64,000 nucleotides of DNA. It comes from the human T2T-CHM13v2.0 reference genome, Homo sapiens. The notes below the pieces were generated by a model. It searched no databases and was not told the DNA's origin. It was given only the letters and a program-made list of their open reading frames with translations. Each line of letters begins with the position of its first letter. Within the stretch, counting starts at the first letter, position 1. Below, in pieces: positions 1 to 61,273 of the stretch. The stretch lies in assembly GCF_009914755.1 (NCBI RefSeq), contig NC_060927.1; one strand, 5' to 3'. A program made the position numbers and the translations under genes.

Positions 1-18
1 TATTCTATCACATACGGA

Positions 19-166
19 ATACCATACCATATACAATGAAATAGTATTCCATTGATTAAATACATACATACCTATGTACATATATATATACACACACACA
101 TATATGTATGTAAATATGTATGTATTGAATCAATGGAATACTGTTTCATTATATACGGTATAGTAT
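19..166. repeat. Fold-back inverted repeat (52-bp arms) around a TA/CA microsatellite
   Basis: 19-70 matches the reverse complement of 115-166 with 5 mismatches; 44-bp TA/CA spacer. Confidence 0.9.
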
Positions 167-680
167 TATATAGATGATGAAATACTACTTGGGGCATAGA
201 ACAGAATGAAATAGTGTTATTCACAGCAACGTTGACTGTGGAAGACAATGTTAAATGAAATAAGCCAGGCACAGAAAGACACTGTATTATCATTAATCCG
301 TGGAATCTGAACAAGTGGATTGCATAAAAGTAGAGAATAGAATAGTGTGTACCAAAGACTGGGGATGGGGGTAGAAGGTGGGTGTACTGGGAGAGGTTGA
401 TCAAAGGGTACAAAATAAAAGTCGAACAGGAAGAATAGTTATTGCATTCTATTACATAGTAGGGTGACTGTAGCTAATAACACTGTGGTGTACATTTCCA
501 GACAGCTAGAAGAAAAAATTTCAAATATTATCACCAGAAAGAAATGATAAATATTTACAGTGTTGGATGTGGTAATTACTCTGATTTGATCATTACATGA
601 TGTATACATGCATTAAAGCATAATATTGTACCCCATAAATATGCAAAATTATGTCAATTATAATTTTTTTAAATAACTAA
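131..680 (+). mobile_element. L1MA-type LINE-1 3' end
   Basis: caatggaatact..., aaatgaaataagccaggcacagaaagac, gtaccccataaatat, A-rich end. Confidence 0.85.
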
Positions 681-4399: not shown

Positions 4400-4759
<360 letters not shown>

Positions 4760-5259
4760 TCAATATTGAACATCTATATGATATAGTTTAAATTTCAATA
4801 ACCTTCACCTTCAATTGCTACTTTAGACTCTATAACATTATACAAAATCCTCAACAAGCATTTCTACAAGAAATCCATCTGGCGCTTTTATTTCTACTTA
4901 AGTAGTCCAAGTTCTCTCTCCAATTGCTGTGTCTTTCCAACTTGATGGCAGTACATACCCATGTATAAAAGCCTTTATGGTAACAAAGCTTTGCAGTAAA
5001 GAAAGTTCAAAGAAATACAATTGCTCCTATTTTTGGGGTCCCTGAAAAGAATTTTTCAGACACCTTTTTGTAGGGTCCAGCAGAGAAACGTAATAGTCTG
5101 TTTTCATGTGGTTAGGGCAGAAATAGAGGTTGATGATAGTACTATACTGCACTCAGCATCAGTACCTATTTGTATGTCTAAAGCATTTCTGCTGACTTAA
5201 AGCTCATTCTACTTGGCTACTTCTTGTATTTGAATGGCTGCTCCAGCAGTCACATTAGA

Positions 5260-5345
5260 GTGTGTGTGTATGTGTGTTTGTGTCTATGTATGGATGTGTG
5301 TGTGTGTGTGTTTGTATATATATATATGTACACACACATATATGT
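5260..5345. repeat. (TG)n/(TA)n microsatellite; TA-rich low complexity continues to about 5812
   Basis: direct inspection. Confidence 0.9.
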
Positions 5346-5883
5346 ATCTATATATCCTTACATACTTCTATTTGTTTATAAAGTCTCAGAGTACTTACAT
5401 ATGTAAATTTATACACAGAGAATTTATATATGCATACTCTATATAGATATAAATTTTACATATATACTTACAAAAGTATAAAGAACCCTGAAACATCAAT
5501 AATATAAAAATAAAGTCTAAATATATACTTAGTATATTTTAGTGTTAAAGCATAAAAATGTGATATGCACTTTATTTAAATGATATATTGTAAAGTTTAG
5601 ATATATAAACTGCAACTTCAGGGACATAGCAATTCAGAAAAGGTACTATTTAGCACTCCAATCTGCCTCTATATACATATAAACTTTAGGTATAACTTTG
5701 TAAATCTTATGTATATTTATATATATAAAGATTATAGAAACAAACTTTATGTATATAAATGTTTTATGTATTTATATATATACACACACATACACATATA
5801 TACATATATATAAAGTTCTGTCAAACCTATTCTACCTGTGTGCCAGTTATCAATAGAAATGTGATTTAGCAATGTGATTTATT

Positions 5884-6272
<389 letters not shown>

Positions 6273-6836
6273 CTATCAAATTTTTACAGCGGGTTTTCAG
6301 CGTCCCTATATTTATACTCCCTGTTTGTTTGTTTGTTTTTAGTCTTTTGCTAAACTTGAACCAAAAATAAACCATGTGGTCGTCAGGCTAGACAAAGGAA
6401 AGGCAGGTTAAAGAGCTGTAGCACTCAAGAAATTGTGAACACTGAGAGAACGCCAAACCTGGGGACACAGGAGGTAATCTATGTAATTCAGGGGTCCTAA
6501 CATCCAGGAGGCAGGTTGAGTTTAGCTCTGTTACTAATGTGTCACCCTTAAAAGAAAAGTAAACAAAAGTATAGAAATCAAAAAGGAAACTTTCTTCTCA
6601 CAGGGGATGTTAGAAGGTGTGTTTTGTGTTCTTTTGTTTTTCGTTATTAGGCAAAGAAGCAATTAAGCAGGTGAGAAACAACCCCATGGAAACATGAAAA
6701 GTAGAGAAAACCTGTCCAAAACATCTGCTTAAAAATTCTGAAGTGGGAAGATTAGAGGTTGATAAAAAGAAATATATTCTGCAATAGGTTTAACACCTGC
6801 TCACTGAATCCCCTAATGCTCTGGGCTGTGTGGTGT

Positions 6837-7000
6837 TCTCCAAATCATGGCTAAGTCTGTCAATCAGGAAATCATTTAAATGAGGCCAAAACACCTTGTG
6901 GCAAAAACAACAGTAATAAAAACTTCAGGGACCAAAGAACTCTGGAACATGGAAGATGTACATACAGAACAAAAGCACAGATTTTCATTTATGTTTCTTG
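6837..7000 (+). repeat. Copy A (probable donor) of a 164-bp inverted duplication
   Basis: reverse complement aligns without gaps to 8685-8848 with 6 mismatches. Confidence 0.97.
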
Positions 7001-7476
7001 CAGTCATGACTTGGATATTCCTTGACTTCTTAATTTATTTTCAACAGAAAACACAGATTTTATTTTTCCATTGAGACTTTTTTGTTCCCTTCCTCTCTTG
7101 AACTTTTTATTAGAATTTATTCCTAGGTTTACAAACTTAGACTATAAAAATATTATTTTCTTCATGCTATGATCATTTTCAACTCTTTCTTTCTATAATT
7201 TTGGCCTGCTGACACACTGTATCATTATTATTTCAAAGTAGTTACAGCAGAAACAATGTTCAGCTTTTAAAATTTATTTCTATTTAAATACCATATATGA
7301 GTTTTAAAGACAACTTACAAATTTAAATTCCCAGAGTTCAATATTTCCTTTCTGGCAAAAGATTTATTTTAAAAAATTTATGTTTGCTGGCAGTTTTACT
7401 TATTTATGTTTTCTATTCTAGAATAAGTGATAATTTGAATTTTTATGACTGCCACTTTAGAGTAAATATAAATACA

Positions 7477-7580
7477 ATTTTTTTTCTGCTTCAACTTTTA
7501 TTTCAGGTTCAAGAGCTACATGTGTAGATTTGTTACATGGGTAAATTGCGTGTCACTGAAGTTTGGTGCACAAGTGATTT
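7477..7580 (-). mobile_element. Short L1 3' end fragment (old L1PA/L1PB type)
   Basis: T-tail then caacttttatttcaggttcaagagctacatgtgtagatttgttacatgggtaaattgcgtg. Confidence 0.8.
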
Positions 7581-8610
7581 AAATTGTACATCAAATGAAA
7601 TTATATTGAAGTATCTTTCCATACCTTATTACTGCTTTGATTGTTTTAATACTGTTCAAATATATTTTTTTGTTGTTAGATACTCTCAGTAAATGGTTTC
7701 TAAGTAGCAGTACAAAAACCAAAAAAAAATTGTAATATAAAGGTTAAAAATTTAATAAAATTATATTTTGAGTTTCATATTTGATTATGTAAATAATGTT
7801 ACCAATTTTCTTACAAAAGATGAGTATATATTTAAATAAATTCTATTTAAATAGATAGCATTTGGAGTTTGTATTTTAGATATAAAAAAGGCAATTATAG
7901 AAAATAGCAAAATTATTTACTTTTAAGCATAAATTATTTCAAGTTGTCTTAGTTGTTTCAGTGGCTGCAACAGTGGTTGAGTGAGTGTAAGACTATTATC
8001 TTTTGGTTTTCAGTGGCCCTATATTTTTACTTCCTATTTGGAGTACAGAAAAATTGTCTTAAACCAGCACCTTTCCTTTTTCTAACCTGATGACCACAAG
8101 GTTTCTTTTTATGTCTATCTAGCAACAGACTAAAAACAAAAACAGGGAGTATAAACATAGGGATGCTAAAAACCTGAAAACCGAAAGATAATAGTCTTAC
8201 ATTTTTAAAATTTTAAATGTGTCCATTTATTTAAATCTCCAAGATTCTTAGCAATGCTTGTTAATAATGTCTTGTATCACTAGAAGGAATTATGTTCTCC
8301 CTAAATAGTTAGGTGCTTCAGTGACATAAATGTGGTAATGAGTCAACTGTCAGCTAATGCAACACACACCGAACCTGATATCAGAATCACTGTGTTCTGG
8401 TCACTGTGTTTTGATTTCTCTGAATCTTATTTCATCAGCAGCAAAAGTGAAAGATTAAAGTGAAGTTTGGTTTTACACCATGTCAATTTTGTATGTATTT
8501 ATTTCCCTCAAGTTGCCCATTCTAGACGATGTCCTGGCATGTGTATTCAAAATGAGCCCACAGATAATACACAGAGAGCCACATTAGTCCACTAAATCAT
8601 GGAGGAATCA

Positions 8611-8613
<3 letters not shown>

Positions 8614-8679
<66 letters not shown>
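8614..8679. repeat. Compound (CT)n(AT)n microsatellite
   Basis: direct inspection; TA-type repeat resumes at 8850-8863 after the inserted segment. Confidence 0.95.
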
Positions 8680-8684
8680 AACAA

Positions 8685-8848
8685 CAAGAAACATAAATGA
8701 AAACCTGTGCTTTTGTTCTGTATTTACATCTCCCATGTTCCAGAGTTCTTTGGTCCCTGAAGTTTTTATTACTGTTGTTTTGGCCACAAGCTGTTTTGGC
8801 CTCATTTAAATGATTTCCTGATTGACAGACTTAGCCATGGTTTGGAGA
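8685..8848 (-). repeat. Copy B (probable inserted copy) of the 164-bp inverted duplication
   Basis: reverse complement of 6837-7000; flanked on both sides by TA repeats. Confidence 0.97.
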
Positions 8849-8870
8849 CATATACATATATATCACTGGA

Positions 8871-9073
8871 CTGCTACCTGACATACCTTCTGCTCAGCTC
8901 TGTCCTCTCTTCATCCTGACTAATATTCCAGGAATCTGGAATCTGGTCCTATTCCAGGCTAGGACCTACTTCCTGCTACCTGACATACCTTCTGCTCAGC
9001 TCTGTCCTCTCTTCATCCTGACTAATATCCAGGAAACTGGAATCTGGTCCTATTCCAGGCTAGGACCTACTTC
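8871..9073. repeat. Tandem duplication, 102 + 101 bp
   Basis: 8871-8972 vs 8973-9073: one substitution and one 1-bp indel. Confidence 0.97.
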
Positions 9074-9539
9074 TGCCTCAATGTAGTCATCTTCTCAAGA
9101 TATCATTTATCAAGTTTTAATATAAAAGGGCTCCTCCTAGGTAAGAAGGGAAACCTGGATTGTGTGTACTCTTAAGGACCTTTCCATTCATTGGCATTGC
9201 GATTGGTAGCCCGTTAATCAGAATTATGCTTCTGATTGTGTGTACCTTTATTATACAAGAAAATCTCATGAAATGTCAGACATTTTTATAGTAAGAATAG
9301 TGGGAGATGGGAAACTTTTTATCACCATCTTTGTTTTACCTCTTAAAAAACTTGATGTGGCAAAATGGAAGTTCAGCCCTGATACTTTTTGGTTTCTTCA
9401 TGAGTTTGGGACTGTGACAGCAGCTTATTCTCCAGTAAAATCCTTAATTAGATTACAAAAGAAAATTTAATGATATAATTTATTGTATATGTCTACATAC
9501 TCTCTTCAACTATTAGAATGTCTCCAATATTTACATAAC

Positions 9540-9700
9540 TCTTTCAAAGTAGGTATTATTAAGTCAGTTGATGCTCAGATAAATGAAGTCAGCAGACCTT
9601 GTTTGCAAAGCTAGTTGGTTGCAAAGCTAATTGCTTGCAAAGCTAGTTGGTTGCAAAGCTAGTTAGTGGCAAAGTATTAGCACCCAGTTCTTCTAATATA
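9540..9700 (-). mobile_element. MIR fragment
   Basis: aggtattatt...agctagttagtggcaaag resembles the reverse MIR core (cagctagtaagtggcagagc). Confidence 0.55.
9603..9674. repeat. 16-bp minisatellite (ttgcaaagctagttgg), about 4.5 copies
   Basis: units start at 9603, 9619, 9635, 9651 and (partial) 9667. Confidence 0.9.
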
Positions 9701-10696
9701 TAATTTTTGTTTGTTTTTTTCTACCACCTGTTACTCATTTAAATAAGAGAAAATCTTGGCTAAAGTAGTTCTTCCTAAAGCAGATTCATTAAGGAGCTCT
9801 CCAGTAAGCAGAGTCCTGATGGTGACCACCCTCTCTGAATCACATGAAGCCATCCCACTAAAATTCCTACAACCAGTCCAATCAGAGCCCTTCTGTGTGC
9901 AAGGTAGCCTCTAATTCTTGAGATCTTGCTTTGCTGCCTGGAAAAGGAATGGGTACCAGGAGCTTCTCTTCTACTTAGAGATATACAACTAAAGTCAAGT
10001 AATTTCATCTGTCTGGACTCAAGAGTTCTTGTGTGCATGATACAGGGAATGAGCTGGATTTTCAGTAGAATTGCTTTCCCTTCTGTACATCTGTGCAAGT
10101 TCTCTGCAGAGCACCATGAGCAGTGATCAAATAATTGCATTTGAGTTTCTCCTCACCTACATTTATCTTATGTCTTTACTTCTTCTAGGTGTCTTCTCTA
10201 GATTTAGGATCTATTTTCTTTCTTAATAGATTACAATCAATATCACAGTGCAAAATACTATTTAAGTTGATGTGGCAAAGTTGTGGAGGGAATTGGAAAT
10301 ACTGAAGAAGGGACTATTTGCATAGTCAGATATAGTTATTTTTAAAAAGTTACTGTTTATCTAATTTAACTTACAATAAACTTATCTCTTGTTTAGACTA
10401 AATTAGAGGTTTGGGGCAGTAGGAAAGGTGACAGTACCAAGATTTAATATAAATAACAGAGTAGATTGGGAAACAAAATGTCCACAAATTATTTTTAAAA
10501 GAGGAATCATGAGTGGATCAAGCTTGAAGCCATATATAAAATCAACAGTCAATTTGACATTTTAACAATTCACCTGTGGTCTTTTCTCTAGAAATTTCAG
10601 TAGGTATGGTGCAGTGAAGTAAAGGCAGCTCAGTGTAGTAGAGTGTTCAGGCTTTAAAATTCAGAAGTGGCCTTCCTCAGATGAAGAATTCAGAGT

Positions 10697-11445
10697 TTCT
10701 TATTTTAGGGCTGCAATAACAAATTATCACACATTGGGTGGCTTAACACACGAGAAAAATATTATCTTACAGTTCTGGAGGTCAGAGTTCCAAATCAAGG
10801 CATCATTAGAGCCAAACTCCCTCTAAAGCAGGGGTCCCCAACACTGGGACGTGGACAGGTGGCTGGGTATTGGTCTGTTGCCTATTAGGTACTGGGCCTC
10901 ACAGAAGGAGGTAAGCAGTGGGCAAGAGAGAATTACCGCCTGAGCTCCACCTCCTGTCAAATCAGCAGGTGCATTAGATTCTCATAGGAGCATGAAGCCT
11001 ATTGTGAACTGTGCATATGAGGGATCTAGGTTGCACACTCCTTATGATAAGCTAATGCCTGATAATCTGACGTGGAACAGTTTCATCCCCAAGCCCTCCA
11101 CCCCCAACTTCTTCCAGGAAACCAGTCCCTGGTGACTAAAAGTTTGGGGACCACTGCTCTAAAGGCTTTAGAGGAGAATTCTTCCTTGCTTTTTCTGGTC
11201 TTTGGTGGTGCCAATCATTCCTTATCTGGCAGCTGCATAACTCCAACTCTGCCTCCACTTTCACATAACCTTCTCCTTCTCTCTGTGTGTCTCTTCTCCT
11301 TTTAAGGACACGTTGGATTTAGGGTCCATGTGGATTATCCAGAATGATTTCCTTTTGAGATTCTTAATTTAATTATATTAACAAAAATTATTTTCCTAAG
11401 TAAGCTCACACTCACAAGTTTTGGAGATTAAGACATAGATTTCTT
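10697..11445 (-). mobile_element. MaLR LTR (MLT1C-like), interrupted by MER1B
   Basis: gggctgcaataacaaattatcacacattgggtggctt...cagttctggaggtcagag; continues after 11164. Confidence 0.8.
10829..11156 (+). mobile_element. MER1B (hAT-Charlie non-autonomous DNA transposon)
   Basis: caggggtccccaac...gtttggggaccactg termini; perfect 8-bp TSD ctctaaag at 10821 and 11157. Confidence 0.92.
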
Positions 11446-29411: not shown

Positions 29412-31599
29412 TTCCAAAAGTGAAATGCCAGATAAACACTTTAGTATGGTACTCAGGAACCTCCATAATATTGGCCTGATAAAATGTCTTACCAGCTTCA
29501 TATTTACTATTTTTTTTCCAATTTCATAATCCAGTTATTTTATTCTGGATTTCCTTAATAGAAATATTTGTTCACATCCATTGTTAAAATTTTCTTTTAC
29601 AATTCTGTGAAATAAAAAAAAATCCATGTTGTTTAAACTATTTTTTTGCATGTTTTCAAATGAATTTCTTTCCACTTTGACGGTACTTCCTGTTGAATTT
29701 TTATTTTAATGTTTCAGCTTACTTGTAAAAATCTCACTTTATTTATGCTTGTAGATTTTTTTTCTGATTGTGCCAGTCCCTTTCACAATCATTTCATATA
29801 TTTATAATCAATCCTATTAAAATTAATGAACAAATAATTTAATAAAATAAAATCTCAAATGATAACAGGGAAGATACTGCCTCTCAAGGGGACTAAATAT
29901 TTTCCAGTAGAGAGAAAATAGACTCAAGATAGGGAAGTGTAGGAAGTTGGGTATTAATGAGCACTCTATTAACTAAGGGTACTAGTTGATTATAGTAACT
30001 TTATTAGGGTTTTGTGTGAGTTGTACTTGAAAAGACTAGAGTTTTTTTTTTAGGTTAGTGAACAGGGAGATTCAAAATTTTTAAAAGATTAATGAAATAG
30101 AACACTTTTTTTTCAAAATTTTCTATTCCCGGGCACACTCCATTTATCTTAATTTTCTCTAATATAGCTGAGGCTCAAAGTAGAATACATTATAATCACA
30201 TGTTCTTAAATGTGATTGTTACAGGCATTTTGTGATTAATGGAAGTGGGCATTACAGCTATGGAAATGCTGGTGAGCGGTTGGTATTTGAAAAGGATATT
30301 CTTCATTATCATAATAAAGAACAAACAAATGTCTCAAAAGGTCATCCAGTAATTTGTAAATGTTTGGCATTTTTGTTCAATTAAAGAATCACTTGTTAGA
30401 TAAAGTTTTAAATATATATGAAGGTTTAATGTTTTTCAAGTTTTCTTACAACGTGATTGGTCTTAAATACCTTTACATAACTGACAGTACCCGTTCGATG
30501 CATACTGACAGGACCCACTAAGTGCATACGTCTGGTGCTGGGCACCATAGGACCTGTTCACAGTTTTGTCTCATCTCCCATCCTGCACCTTCTCTTCGCG
30601 ACATCAAAGCGGTTGGACGGTTACTAGGAATATTCCTGAAAGTTATTCTTATTCTTGCATGTTTAGCTATAATCTAGCTGAAATATAAGAGACTATGAAT
30701 CACATAAATATGCAACACGAAATTCAAACTAAATGAACAGCCAGCTCACATCAGCCATAGTCTCTCTCATACCATATAGAGTTATAGAAAGTGTAAAACA
30801 TGGAAAATTAGAGTTTGAAGAATATGTCTTAAACAATTGCCATTATTATCTTACTTTTGCAAATTTCACAAAAAATATATGACCATGAGAGTATATTGTT
30901 ATAGCGATTCTCTAGGCCTAGAAAAGAACCCTTATAAAAGTGAGGGGCTTGGTAGGTTAAGCTTCGTTAATCCATATGCCTTTGAACAGCAGCTGGCCAT
31001 AGCCAAGCTATGAAACAAACGGAGGGAAAAGCAACAGATAAAAAGCTGAAATAGACAAGTCTGGATTTAAAGATACTGAGAATGAGTATCACGATTTAGG
31101 CATTTTAATTTGTGCTCCTCTGCAAAATTGCTTGGACAACTGAGACATCTGAATTAGTGAGAATCACTTTACCTTTCAGATATGTATTGAGTGCCTATTA
31201 TGTTCAATGCACTGGTTATTTTCCCTCAATCTATATAGCGGTTTAGAATAATGACAGTACATCTTACAGGGATTATAAAAACAAGCTACTATGTTATGAG
31301 AAACATAAAATATCAATTAGGTGGGACAGAACTGATATAATGGAGCAAATTATTTTATCTGTTTGAGAGGATCAATTTTCAAGTAGTTTATAAGGTTTGA
31401 GGGGTCTTGAAAGTTAACAGGTTTAAGAGGAAAAAAAAATCCAATGAGGATAGGAGACACCAACATGAAAAAATGTGTTTTGAAAGGTAAAATTTATGAA
31501 GATAATAGCCTAGCATGCAAGATCTTTGATGATCTCTGAGCAAGTTTTATTTGGCCAACTTAACTCCCTCCATTTATCCCACACACATGAGCGCTAGGT

Positions 31600-48744: not shown

Positions 48745-49040
48745 TTTTTTTTTTTTTTTGGAGACAGAGTCTCACTCTGTCATCTGGGCTGGAATGTAGT
48801 GGCATGATCTTGGCTCATTGCAACCTCTGCCTCCTGGGTTCAAGTGATTCTCCTGCCTTAGCCTCCGGAGTATTTGGGATTACAGACATGTGCCACCACA
48901 CCCAGCTAATTTTTGTATATTTAGTAAAGATGGGATTTCACTATGTTGGCCAGGCTGGTCTCGAACTCCTGACCTCGTGATTAGCCCACCTCGACCTCCC
49001 AATGTGCTGGGATTACAGATGTGATCCACTGTGCCCAGCC
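48745..49040 (-). mobile_element. Alu (AluSg/Sx-like)
   Basis: full dimer. Confidence 0.93.
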
Positions 49041-54710: not shown

Positions 54711-54832
54711 CCTAGAACATAGACTATGTTTTGGAGCATTCACAGCCTAAGTAACTGAGACCAATCTCCTGCTTAAAATAGTAGAAAATTTAGAAAATAA
54801 TATACACTATTTTGGAAATATTTTGAAAGAAT

Positions 54833-54913
54833 ATATGTACATATATATTTTATACATACACATATTTATATGTACAAATACATATACATCTATATATGTG
54901 TAGATATGTTACA

Positions 54914-54954
<41 letters not shown>

Positions 54955-60376: not shown

Positions 60377-60507
60377 TTATATATATATATATATATATAA
60401 TATCTTTATATATATATAAAATATCTTTATATATATATAAAATATCTTTACATATATATAAAATATCTTTACATATATATAAAATATCTTTATATATATT
60501 TTATATA
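60377..60507. repeat. (TA)n-derived 21-bp minisatellite (aaaatatctttatatatatat), about 5 copies
   Basis: direct inspection. Confidence 0.9.
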
Positions 60508-61273
60508 CAGTGAGGAAAATATCAGCCATACTTTCATATGATCTTATCAATACTTTCTATAGATACCTCCCCTTGGGATAATAATAACTGCACCACTCAT
60601 AAAGACACTTTTAGTAATGTGCCTTCAAAATGCATTTTAATCGTGAAAGCATGCATTGAATTTTTAATATTATAAAACTTGGAGAACATACTGTCCTCTT
60701 CAACACTTTTCTTGACTTTAAATAGCCTTTGGACTCTTGAAAAAGTTAAGCCTAAGTCACATTATGACTAGATGATTTAGTTTAAACTCATATGAAAGCC
60801 ACTTCATCCCCTTCATCATCCTGGCTGCCCTTTTCTGACCCTTCTCAACTCTATTACATTTGTCTGATGATGTGGTGTTAGTTCATAGCTTGATTGAGGT
60901 GTTTATTGATTTCAGCTACTGCTCTCTACTATATATAAATAAGTCTAAAAGTGAGAAGGTTTAAATTTGATAATGAAAGAGAAGGTTATTTCATGACATC
61001 CACGATTTCTTTGATGGTTTATCTGATGGGCTGTCAAAAGAGGGCATATCCAGAAAACTCAGCACCTATGAAAGAAAATGACCCAGCCAGTGGAGTCCAG
61101 AGATACAGACCTAGGAATTCATAATCTCTAATGGGGAACTGAAAGATTGTTTGAGATGGTATTTTCATTTCTTTCACATAAGAGTAAACATTTGAGAGAG
61201 AAAAGGCTTGCAAGAAGTGAATAGTTGAACATGAACACGCTTTACACACACACACACACACAAAAAAAAAAAA

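What the first reader, a model, noticed from the sequence alone, without database searches (positions are those of the whole stretch)
6837..8848. 164-bp inverted copy of local unique DNA inserted into a (TA)n microsatellite 1.7 kb away
Seen: 8685-8848 is the ungapped reverse complement of 6837-7000 with only 6 mismatches (96%). Copy B splits a TA tract (repeat before 8680 and again at 8850-8863), has a short acaa filler at its left junction, and shows no poly-A, TSD or TIR. I recognise no transposon in it. Established: long (TA)n tracts form secondary structures that stall forks and break, and repair by template switching (FoSTeS/MMBIR or polymerase theta) copies nearby sequence, often inverted. 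Inference: this is a fixed templated-insertion scar. The 3.7% divergence between copies would roughly fit an ape-ancestor origin, with wide uncertainty from only 6 differences.
Basis: partly seen in the sequence, partly recalled or inferred. Interest (0 to 1): 0.8.

Follow-up and report, generated by a model that had tools for sequence, protein, structure and literature searches.

The report
Inverted 164-bp copy in TA repeat
A 164-base stretch of unique human DNA was copied backwards into a fragile TA repeat 1.7 kb away, most likely as a repair patch made millions of years ago; it is a clean example of a known and fairly common kind of scar.

Summary
8685-8848 is the ungapped reverse complement of 6837-7000, with 6 mismatches in 164. 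The whole T2T genome holds exactly these two copies, whereas a masked repeat used as a control gave 1682 candidates. Homology stops dead at both ends. Copy B lies between (TC)14.5(TA)19 plus AACAA on the left and C plus a 14-nt TA tract on the right. Only 0.5% of window positions touch such a tract. I found no TSD, poly-A, long ORF, Pfam or Rfam signal.

Best reading (0.7): a break or stalled fork in the TA tract was patched by a template switch that copied local DNA in reverse. Main rival (0.12): a template switch or staggered-break inversion that also flipped the 1.7-kb spacer. Only outgroup genomes can separate the two, and none was available here.

The divergence of 3.7% (95% range 1.3-8.0%) allows an ape-ancestor date but does not prove it.

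Small inverted duplications are already a catalogued class in humans: 277 polymorphic events, median 284 bp (PMC12350158). This is therefore a new member of a known kind, of low to moderate interest.

New here: a 102-bp tandem duplication lies 22 bp from copy B, and the window holds two older local inverted pairs.

The parts
6837..7000 (+). Copy A, the presumed template (donor). It is unique DNA with unique flanks on both sides.
   Evidence: A 741-nt query over 6560-7300 finds only itself and copy B in the genome (2 of 2 matches).
7001..8684 (.). 1684-nt spacer between the arms. It is AT-rich (GC 0.287) and includes the microsatellite at its right end.
   Evidence: No ORF over 83 aa across 6837-8848, and no Pfam hit above cut-off.
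8614..8642 (.). (TC)14.5, the left part of the compound microsatellite.
   Evidence: TRF: 100% matches.
8642..8679 (.). (TA)19 with one G interruption. This is the left half of the TA tract that was split. On its own it folds into a 16-bp hairpin.
   Evidence: TRF. DNA fold of 8600-8700: -9.0 kcal/mol, z -4.0, 0 of 200 shuffles as good.
8680..8684 (.). 5-nt filler AACAA at the left junction. It does not continue the template.
   Evidence: identical suffix with the template context is 0 nt. The last three bases (CAA) repeat the first three of the insert.
8685..8848 (-). Copy B, the inverted 164-nt insert.
8849..8849 (.). Single C at the right junction. It is not templated in register.
   Evidence: identical prefix with the template context is 0 nt.
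8850..8863 (.). ATATACATATATAT, the right-hand remainder of the TA tract.
   Evidence: one of 14 TA tracts in the window.
8871..9073 (+). Tandem duplication of a unique 102-nt unit (102 + 101 nt; 1 mismatch and 1 indel), 22 bp right of copy B. It may belong to the same event or reflect the same fragile site.
   Evidence: Only 3 of 15 TRF rows in the window have period 50 or more. The other two are 78-80% arrays at 48745 and 60393. Apart from the two units matching each other, the unit has no other match in the genome.

Best explanation
This is a copy-and-paste repair scar. A compound (TC)n(TA)n microsatellite suffered a double-strand break or a stalled fork. TA tracts of this length can fold into hairpins or cruciforms. 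A free 3' end on the left side of the lesion, the + strand ending in the TA tract, left its proper template. It primed on + strand DNA about 1.7 kb behind it, at position 7000. It did this either by folding back on itself or by switching to the other arm of the fork. It was extended for 164 nt down to 6837, which necessarily writes the reverse complement. It then came off and was rejoined to the other half of the TA tract by end joining with little or no microhomology. This left 5 nt and 1 nt of filler. The donor stayed in place, so the result is a 164-nt inverted repeat with a 1684-nt spacer. No function is implied. Shown: the geometry, the two-copy status, the sharp ends and the TA tract on both sides. 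Inferred: which copy is derived, the trigger, and the enzymes.
For: (1) The pair is real, E 5.4e-70 genome-wide. (2) The genome holds exactly 2 matches, from 2 of 2 first-look candidates scored, for the 164-mer. The same two are found with 741-nt queries around each copy. In one search the other 26 of 28 matches lie only on the TC/TA tract. The control repeat 4501-4702 gave 1682 candidates, so a repeat of that kind (copies about 90% alike) is detectable by this search. (3) Homology ends abruptly. Flanks beyond both ends score no better than shuffles (174 of 300 and 268 of 300 shuffles reach the observed score), and there is 0 nt of extension at both junctions. (4) Copy B has a TA tract 5 nt to its left and 1 nt to its right, while only 0.50% of window positions lie in or within 2 nt of such a tract (14 tracts). 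An insertion into one tract predicts this directly. (5) Copy A has ordinary unique flanks. (6) The (TA)19 tract folds into a 16-bp hairpin (z -4.0). AT/TA repeats stalling replication and breaking is established (abstracts of PMC11797062 and PMC12972899 in the listing). (7) The 6 mismatches show the copy is old and not an assembly chimera. (8) Matching known processes exist. One is fold-back priming at a DSB with capture by the other end, 2 to about 150 bp (PMC11724301, passages). Another is four-point template switch type 3-2-1-4, which creates an inverted repeat (PMC5453318, passages). A third is polymorphic human inverted duplications, median 284 bp, of suggested replicative origin (PMC12350158, passages). 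(9) It is the only inverted pair in the window with 90% complementarity or more (1 of 25 pairs of at least 60 nt within 10 kb; the others are 71-85%).
Against: No outgroup or second human genome could be consulted, so neither polarity nor the orientation of the spacer in the ancestor is shown. Strict microhomology is 0 nt at both junctions, whereas most catalogued inverted duplications show 1-15 bp. The fillers may hide it. A 1.7-kb jump and a 164-nt copy exceed the ranges surveyed systematically. MMB-TI templates were sought only within 100 bp. Yeast fold-backs are mostly under 14 bp with a 41-nt loop, and extensive resection suppressed them. TA tracts on both sides could also arise if two separate TA tracts were the two breakpoints of an inversion.
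Confidence: 0.7

Rival explanations
1. A 1.85-kb inversion duplicated one breakpoint. In one version a template switch copied the whole spacer plus A backwards (four-point type 3-1-2-4). In the other, two breaks, one staggered by 164 nt, were filled in and rejoined after the segment flipped. The ancestor would then have had one copy, the spacer in the opposite orientation, and two separate TA tracts at the breakpoints.
For: The present structure, a - spacer - reverse complement of a, is exactly what this produces. [quoted passage not shown] Under this model the 7000/7001 junction has a 2-nt TG microhomology (my reading of the flank sequences printed). Both breakpoints would lie at TA tracts, which are break-prone.
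Against: It needs a second, short (14-nt) TA tract to sit exactly at the second breakpoint. Only 0.5% of positions qualify by chance. It also needs either 1.85 kb of synthesis on the wrong template with a return exactly next to the entry point, or two breaks. The simple insertion explains TA on both sides of B with one lesion.
Confidence: 0.12
2. The polarity is reversed. Copy B, which by chance lies beside TA tracts, is the original, and copy A is the templated insertion.
For: The pair itself is symmetric, and no outgroup polarises it.
Against: Copy A's flanks show no microsatellite, filler or other junction feature. Copy B is bracketed by TA tracts plus fillers (p about 0.005 for the second tract).
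Confidence: 0.05
3. An RNA- or L1-mediated patch: a transcript of the A region was reverse-transcribed into a break (class 2 TSIP) or inserted by L1 machinery (class 1).
For: Class 2 TSIPs lack TSD and poly-A and show NHEJ features such as fillers (PMC5110952, passages). TA-rich sites are good L1 endonuclease targets (recalled).
Against: There is no poly-A and no recognisable TSD. TSIP donors are distant loci, whereas here the donor is 1.7 kb away in cis out of 3.1 Gb, which points to a DNA template close in space. No annotated transcript covers A (hub gene table; the nearest lncRNA starts at 30909).
Confidence: 0.03
4. The two copies are terminal inverted repeats of one 2-kb transposon, or members of an unrecognised interspersed repeat family.
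For: 164-nt inverted termini enclosing about 1.7 kb resemble a foldback-type element on the surface.
Against: The genome holds 2 copies only, and the interior is unique. There is no TSD outside the arms. No ORF exceeds 83 aa (12 ORFs of at least 50 aa). In the 8 of those 12 ORFs that I scanned, 4 families matched at E up to 1, none reaching its curated cut-off. 96% identity with only two copies does not fit a family.
Confidence: 0.01
5. Assembly artefact in T2T-CHM13.
For: TA tracts are hard to sequence, and fold-back chimeric reads exist.
Against: A chimeric artefact would give an identical copy directly adjacent. This one is 3.7% diverged and lies 1.7 kb away with clean unique flanks. It cannot be tested with reads here.
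Confidence: 0.01

Closest known systems
Small inverted duplications in human long-read SV catalogues (Schloissnig et al. 2025, PMC12350158; passages read)
   Same: Insertion-type variants whose sequence is an inverted copy of existing DNA. 277 events, median length 284 bp. Homology at breakpoints is rare (8.8%), and a replicative origin is suggested. The size (164 bp) and the lack of breakpoint homology fit.
   Different: Those are polymorphic calls. This one is seen in a single reference genome and is old (3.7% diverged). Most of them show 1-15 bp of microhomology, whereas here the strict junctions show 0 nt plus fillers. I did not see whether their donors lie kilobases from the insertion or whether they favour microsatellites.
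Short-range template switch mutations, four-point model type 3-2-1-4 (Loytynoja and Goldman 2017, PMC5453318; passages read)
   Same: The nascent strand leaves at point 1, copies a fragment 2 to 3 in reverse complement from upstream, and returns at point 4. This creates a new inverted repeat, and the geometry is identical.
   Different: Their screen kept fragments of at least 10 bp (at least 14 bp in another filter) within local mutation clusters, and the authors explicitly do not model long-range switches. Here the jump is 1.7 kb and the fragment 164 nt.
MMBIR templated insertions (MMB-TI; Osia et al. 2021, PMC8421209; passages read)
   Same: An inverted copy of a nearby template is inserted, and the donor is kept.
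   Different: MMB-TI is defined with flanking microhomologies, and templates were searched only within 100 bp. Neither holds here.
Fold-back inverted insertions at double-strand breaks in yeast (PMC11724301; passages read)
   Same: One end primes synthesis on its own strand. The new DNA unwinds and the other end captures it by NHEJ with 0-5 bp of microhomology. Insert sizes run from 2 to about 150 bp.
   Different: The yeast loop is 41 nt and priming uses a 10-nt inverted microhomology next to the break. Here the loop would be about 1.7 kb and no priming homology is visible.
Class 2 templated sequence insertion polymorphisms (Onozawa and Aplan 2016, PMC5110952; passages read)
   Same: A patch at a break without TSD or poly-A, with fillers.
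   Different: TSIP donors are distant and thought to be RNA-derived. Here the donor is 1.7 kb away in cis.

Membership tests
Templated inverted insertion / small inverted duplication (template switch, MMBIR/FoSTeS or fold-back type) | The insert is the reverse complement of a nearby sequence that is retained (copy-paste). | tested here: met
   164 nt, 96%, donor 1684 nt away and intact.
Templated inverted insertion / small inverted duplication (template switch, MMBIR/FoSTeS or fold-back type) | It is not a mobile element: single donor, no family, no TSD, poly-A or TIR signature. | tested here: met
   2 genomic copies. Control repeat gave 1682 candidates. Junctions read.
Templated inverted insertion / small inverted duplication (template switch, MMBIR/FoSTeS or fold-back type) | Microhomology at the switch junctions. 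| tested here: inconclusive
   0 nt at both strict junctions. A 5-nt and a 1-nt filler intervene. CAA is repeated across the left junction.
Templated inverted insertion / small inverted duplication (template switch, MMBIR/FoSTeS or fold-back type) | An empty site (uninterrupted recipient sequence) exists in an ancestor or another allele. | not testable with these tools
   No primate or other human genome is held (one search states that G000 has no relatives here). The indirect sign is a TA tract on both sides.
Inversion with duplicated breakpoint (four-point type 3-1-2-4 / staggered breaks) | The spacer is inverted relative to the ancestor. | not testable with these tools
   This needs an outgroup. 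No repeat element spans the breakpoints that could serve as an internal marker.
DNA transposon with terminal inverted repeats | Multiple copies in the genome. | tested here: not met
   Arms and interior are found only at this locus.
DNA transposon with terminal inverted repeats | A target-site duplication flanks the outer ends. | tested here: not met
   The 20 nt left of 6837 and the 20 nt right of 8848 share nothing.
DNA transposon with terminal inverted repeats | A transposase remnant lies inside. | tested here: not met
   The longest ORF is 83 aa. Among the 8 of 12 ORFs scanned, no Pfam match reached its cut-off. Decayed remnants below detection cannot be excluded.
L1-mediated insertion (class 1 TSIP / retrocopy) | Poly-A tail and a TSD of at least 5 bp. 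| tested here: not met
   No A or T run at either end of copy B. A TSD made only of TA units would be invisible.
Structured RNA gene or retro-pseudogene of one | A match to an Rfam family. | tested here: not met
   A scan of 6000-9500 at E up to 1 gave 2 matches, both in the Alu at 6006-6148 and far below gathering scores.

The most novel reading that the evidence does not exclude
The locus may record one complex germline replication accident at a TA microsatellite, not a simple patch. It would be a multi-switch MMBIR-type event that wrote a 164-nt inverted copy from 1.7 kb behind the fork and, 22 bp further on, slipped back to make the 102-nt tandem duplication. The 164-nt copy is Okazaki-fragment-sized, as expected if the nascent leading strand filled a gap on the lagging-strand template. 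TA-rich tracts in this gene desert may also seed such events repeatedly. The window holds two older inverted pairs confined to this locus, at 6292-6414 / 8057-8174 and at 1-187, the latter centred on a TA/CA tract. If so, dated scars of this kind could give a germline rate and spectrum for microsatellite-triggered template switching at the 100-bp / kb scale, which current screens do not cover.
Probability: 0.2. Interest if true: 0.45.

Novelty: new member of a known kind. Interest (0 to 1): 0.25.

Why it matters
This is a tidy, datable natural example linking a structure-prone TA microsatellite to a templated inverted insertion in the human germline. Its scale (164 nt copied from 1.7 kb away) falls between the short-range template switches screened by pair-HMM or short-read tools and the large rearrangements of genomic disorders. 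The new 164-nt inverted repeat could in principle mediate inversion of the 1.7-kb spacer. It lies in a gene desert, with no annotated gene or enhancer within about 5 kb (hub table), so no phenotypic consequence is expected. Its value is as a data point for mutational mechanism, not as a functional element.

Tried and rejected
A second call failed on a formality, and I did not pursue it.

(2) Outgroup or population evidence. No primate or other human genome is searchable here. A search of the held supplementary text of PMC12350169 for coordinates near the locus found only unrelated numbers and one unrelated chr3 insertion identifier. One file was unreadable and one was cut when stored. So nothing can be said about polymorphism.

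(3) Transposon reading. It is rejected on copy number, missing TSD and missing ORFs. The Pfam hits (MASE6, Orf78, DUF2721, CENP-F_C) are all below their cut-offs on low-complexity translations, and I regard them as noise.

(4) RNA gene. Rfam gave only sub-threshold Alu-derived hits.

(5) Homology hidden beyond the 164 nt, which would have meant an older and larger inverted duplication. Local alignment of both pairs of flanks scored no better than shuffles.

(6) Templated origin of the filler. The junction 8-mer AAACAACA recurs inside copy A at 6905. About 0.26 such matches are expected by chance in 3.5 kb on both strands (my estimate from base composition), so this is not evidence.

(7) A single larger inverted duplication covering both local pairs (6292-6414 / 8057-8174 and 6837-7000 / 8685-8848). 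I rejected it because the two pairs are not collinear in inverted order and differ in age (80% against 96%).

(8) Compositional skew as a marker of spacer orientation. I considered this and did not run it, because 1.7 kb is too short for the weak skews of intergenic human DNA.

Full report
**Observation.** The repeat finder reports arms 6837-7000 and 8685-8848: 164 nt, 96% complementary, 1684 nt apart. A script counts 6 mismatches of 164, of which 3 are transitions and 3 transversions, none in a CpG context. Gapped blastn of 5000-11000 against itself returns the same ungapped block at E 1.9e-74. Within the 64-kb window the next best match to the 164-mer is 19 nt long. Among 25 inverted pairs of at least 60 nt lying within 10 kb of each other in the window, this is the only one at 90% or more. 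The rest are 71-85% and mostly coincide with the stretches the hub lists as masked repeats.

**Copy number.** The window's own genome (3.1 Gb, 24 contigs) could be searched.
- The 164-mer has 2 matches, from 2 of 2 first-look candidates scored: itself and the inverted copy at E 5.4e-70.
- A 741-nt query around copy A finds the same two places and nothing else at E up to 1.
- A 741-nt query around copy B gives 28 matches: itself, copy A, and 26 that cover only the TC/TA microsatellite part of the query.
- As a positive control, the masked repeat at 4501-4702 gave 1682 first-look candidates, of which 40 were scored, at about 90% identity.

The tool warns that very common words are skipped and that counts are lower bounds. 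Still, a family whose members were 96% alike would not be missed. The search also picked up an 80%, 125-nt local match, so it reaches that depth.

**Anatomy of the junctions.** On the left of copy B lie (TC)14.5 at 8614-8642 and (TA)19 at 8642-8679, then the 5 nt AACAA. On the right lie one C and then ATATACATATATAT at 8850-8863. Homology to the template stops at once at both ends: 0 nt of extension. Local alignment of the next 200 nt on each side is no better than shuffled sequence (174 of 300 and 268 of 300 shuffles reach the observed score). There is no poly-A and no TSD outside either copy or outside the pair. A TSD made only of TA units would be invisible. The last three filler bases (CAA) repeat the first three bases of the insert. 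This may be a stutter of the polymerase, but it is too short to count as evidence.

**Why insertion into one TA tract is the best reading.** Only 14 TA tracts (14-mers within one mismatch of pure TA) exist in the window, and 0.50% of positions lie in or within 2 nt of one. Copy B has one on each side, while copy A has ordinary unique flanks. An insertion into a single tract explains this with one lesion. The (TA)19 remnant alone folds into a 16-bp hairpin (-9.0 kcal/mol, z -4.0). That AT/TA repeats stall replication and break is established (abstracts of PMC11797062 and PMC12972899, listing).

**Mechanism.** Because B lies to the right of A and is its reverse complement, the simplest path is as follows.
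1. The + strand 3' end left of the lesion primes on + strand DNA at 7000.
2. It is extended down to 6837.
3. It is then released and joined to the other half of the tract.

The template strand could be the same strand folded back after resection, or the lagging-strand template or sister behind a fork. Both versions have precedents.
- In yeast, fold-back priming by Pol delta with NHEJ capture by the second end gives inverted insertions of 2 to about 150 bp, with 0-5 bp of junction microhomology (PMC11724301, passages).
- In human-chimpanzee comparisons, four-point type 3-2-1-4 creates new inverted repeats (PMC5453318, passages).

The geometry is shown. The trigger, the strand and the enzymes are inferred. 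Polymerase theta alone seems unlikely for 164 nt (recalled: its templated inserts are mostly tens of bases).

**Main rival.** The same present-day structure arises if the whole spacer was flipped and one breakpoint duplicated. [quoted passage not shown] Here it would require a second, short TA tract exactly at the second breakpoint, plus either 1.85 kb of synthesis on the wrong template or two breaks. I rate it 0.12. Junction microhomology does not discriminate: from the flank sequences printed I read 0 and 1 nt under the insertion model and 2 and 0 nt under the inversion model.

**Other rivals.**
- Transposon or repeat family. This is rejected by copy number, by the absence of a TSD, by the absence of ORFs over 83 aa (12 ORFs of at least 50 aa), and by Pfam (8 of the 12 scanned, 4 families matched at E up to 1, none reaching its cut-off).
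- RNA gene. Rfam at E up to 1 gives 2 matches in 6000-9500, both sub-threshold and inside the Alu at 6006-6148.
- RNA-derived patch (class 2 TSIP, PMC5110952). This fits the lack of TSD and poly-A. However, TSIP donors are distant, whereas here the donor is 1.7 kb away in cis.
- Assembly artefact. This is unlikely because the copy is 3.7% diverged and not adjacent to its source, but reads could not be inspected.

**Age.** 6 of 164 is 3.66% (Jukes-Cantor 3.75%), with a Poisson 95% range of 2.2-13.1 differences, or 1.3-8.0%. Against recalled species divergences (human-chimpanzee about 1.2%, human-orangutan about 3%, human-macaque about 6%), the point estimate lies near or just before the great-ape ancestor. 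The range, however, runs from about the human-chimpanzee split to beyond the Old World monkey split. Error-prone synthesis could add at most about one of the six differences (recalled error rates). Gene conversion between the arms would make the pair look younger.

- A 102-nt unit is tandemly duplicated 22 bp right of copy B (8871-8972 and 8973-9073, 1 mismatch and 1 indel). Apart from the two units matching each other, it has no other match in the genome. Of 15 TRF rows scoring at least 80 in the window, 3 have period 50 or more, and the other two are 78-80% arrays. The juxtaposition is therefore unlikely to be chance, although this is a post hoc observation. Its divergence (about 2%) is statistically indistinguishable from that of the inverted pair. 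It may be a second template switch of the same event or a later accident at the same fragile tract.
- The neighbourhood holds an older inverted pair. 6292-6414 matches 8174-8057 at 80% over 125 nt. That copy sits inside a 216-nt hairpin-like palindrome at 7986-8201 (outer 28 nt 96% complementary; DNA fold -39.1 kcal/mol, z -6.4). Both are found only at this locus.
- At the left edge of the window, 88-nt arms at 82% lie 14 nt apart around a (TA)n(CA)n tract. The arms match only each other in the genome.

Together these suggest recurrent local inverted copying here, part of it at TA-rich tracts. Without Dfam, ancient repeat families cannot be excluded for the two older structures.

**Comparison with what is known.** Small inverted duplications are a recognised class. 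In 1,019 long-read human genomes, 311 insertions were reclassified as inverted duplications. Among 733 non-MEI inversion-type variants, 277 were inverted duplications with a median length of 284 bp. Breakpoint homology was rare (8.8%), microhomology was mostly 1-15 bp, and a replicative origin was suggested (PMC12350158, passages). The present case fits in size and in its lack of homology. It differs in being old and in showing fillers in place of microhomology. It lies outside the search space of the systematic template-switch screens. MMB-TI templates were sought within 100 bp (PMC8421209), and the four-point model explicitly leaves out long-range switches. I found no paper describing this locus, and I did not search for it by name, since it has none.

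**Verdict.** This is a real, non-random, two-copy inverted pair. It is best explained as a templated inverted insertion into a broken or stalled TA microsatellite (0.7). It is a new member of a known kind with no sign of function. Interest is 0.25. The adjacent tandem duplication and the older local inverted pairs are the parts most worth following up once ape genomes can be aligned.

Noticed in passing
window 8871-9073: A unique 102-nt unit is tandemly duplicated (102 + 101 nt, 1 mismatch and 1 indel), starting 22 bp right of copy B. Three TRF rows in the 64-kb window have period 50 or more, and this is the only one above 80% matches. It may be part of the same repair event.
   Followed up: partly
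window 6292-6414 and 7986-8201: A 216-nt hairpin-like palindrome lies at 7986-8201 (outer 28 nt 96% complementary; DNA fold z -6.4). Its right arm and loop (8057-8174) are an 80% inverted copy of 6292-6414. Both are found only at this locus in the genome search. This is either an older local inverted duplication or an ancient MITE-like element the search cannot see.
   Followed up: partly
window 1-187 (L003 1498-1687): A quasi-palindrome with 88-nt arms, 82% complementary and 14 nt apart, is centred on a (TA)n(CA)n tract. The arms match only each other in the genome. More TA/TG tracts and short inverted copies of a CAATGGAAT motif lie just left of the window. From memory the area looks like a rearranged old L1 fragment, but this was not tested.
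   Followed up: partly
window 54831-54951 and 60378-60522: Two much longer but impure TA tracts lie here (about 61 and 68 units at 71-73% matches). The second has 21- and 63-nt higher-order periods. I did not examine them for inserted unique sequence.
   Followed up: no
window 9599-9674: A 16-nt minisatellite of 4.8 copies at 88% matches lies about 750 bp right of copy B.
   Followed up: no
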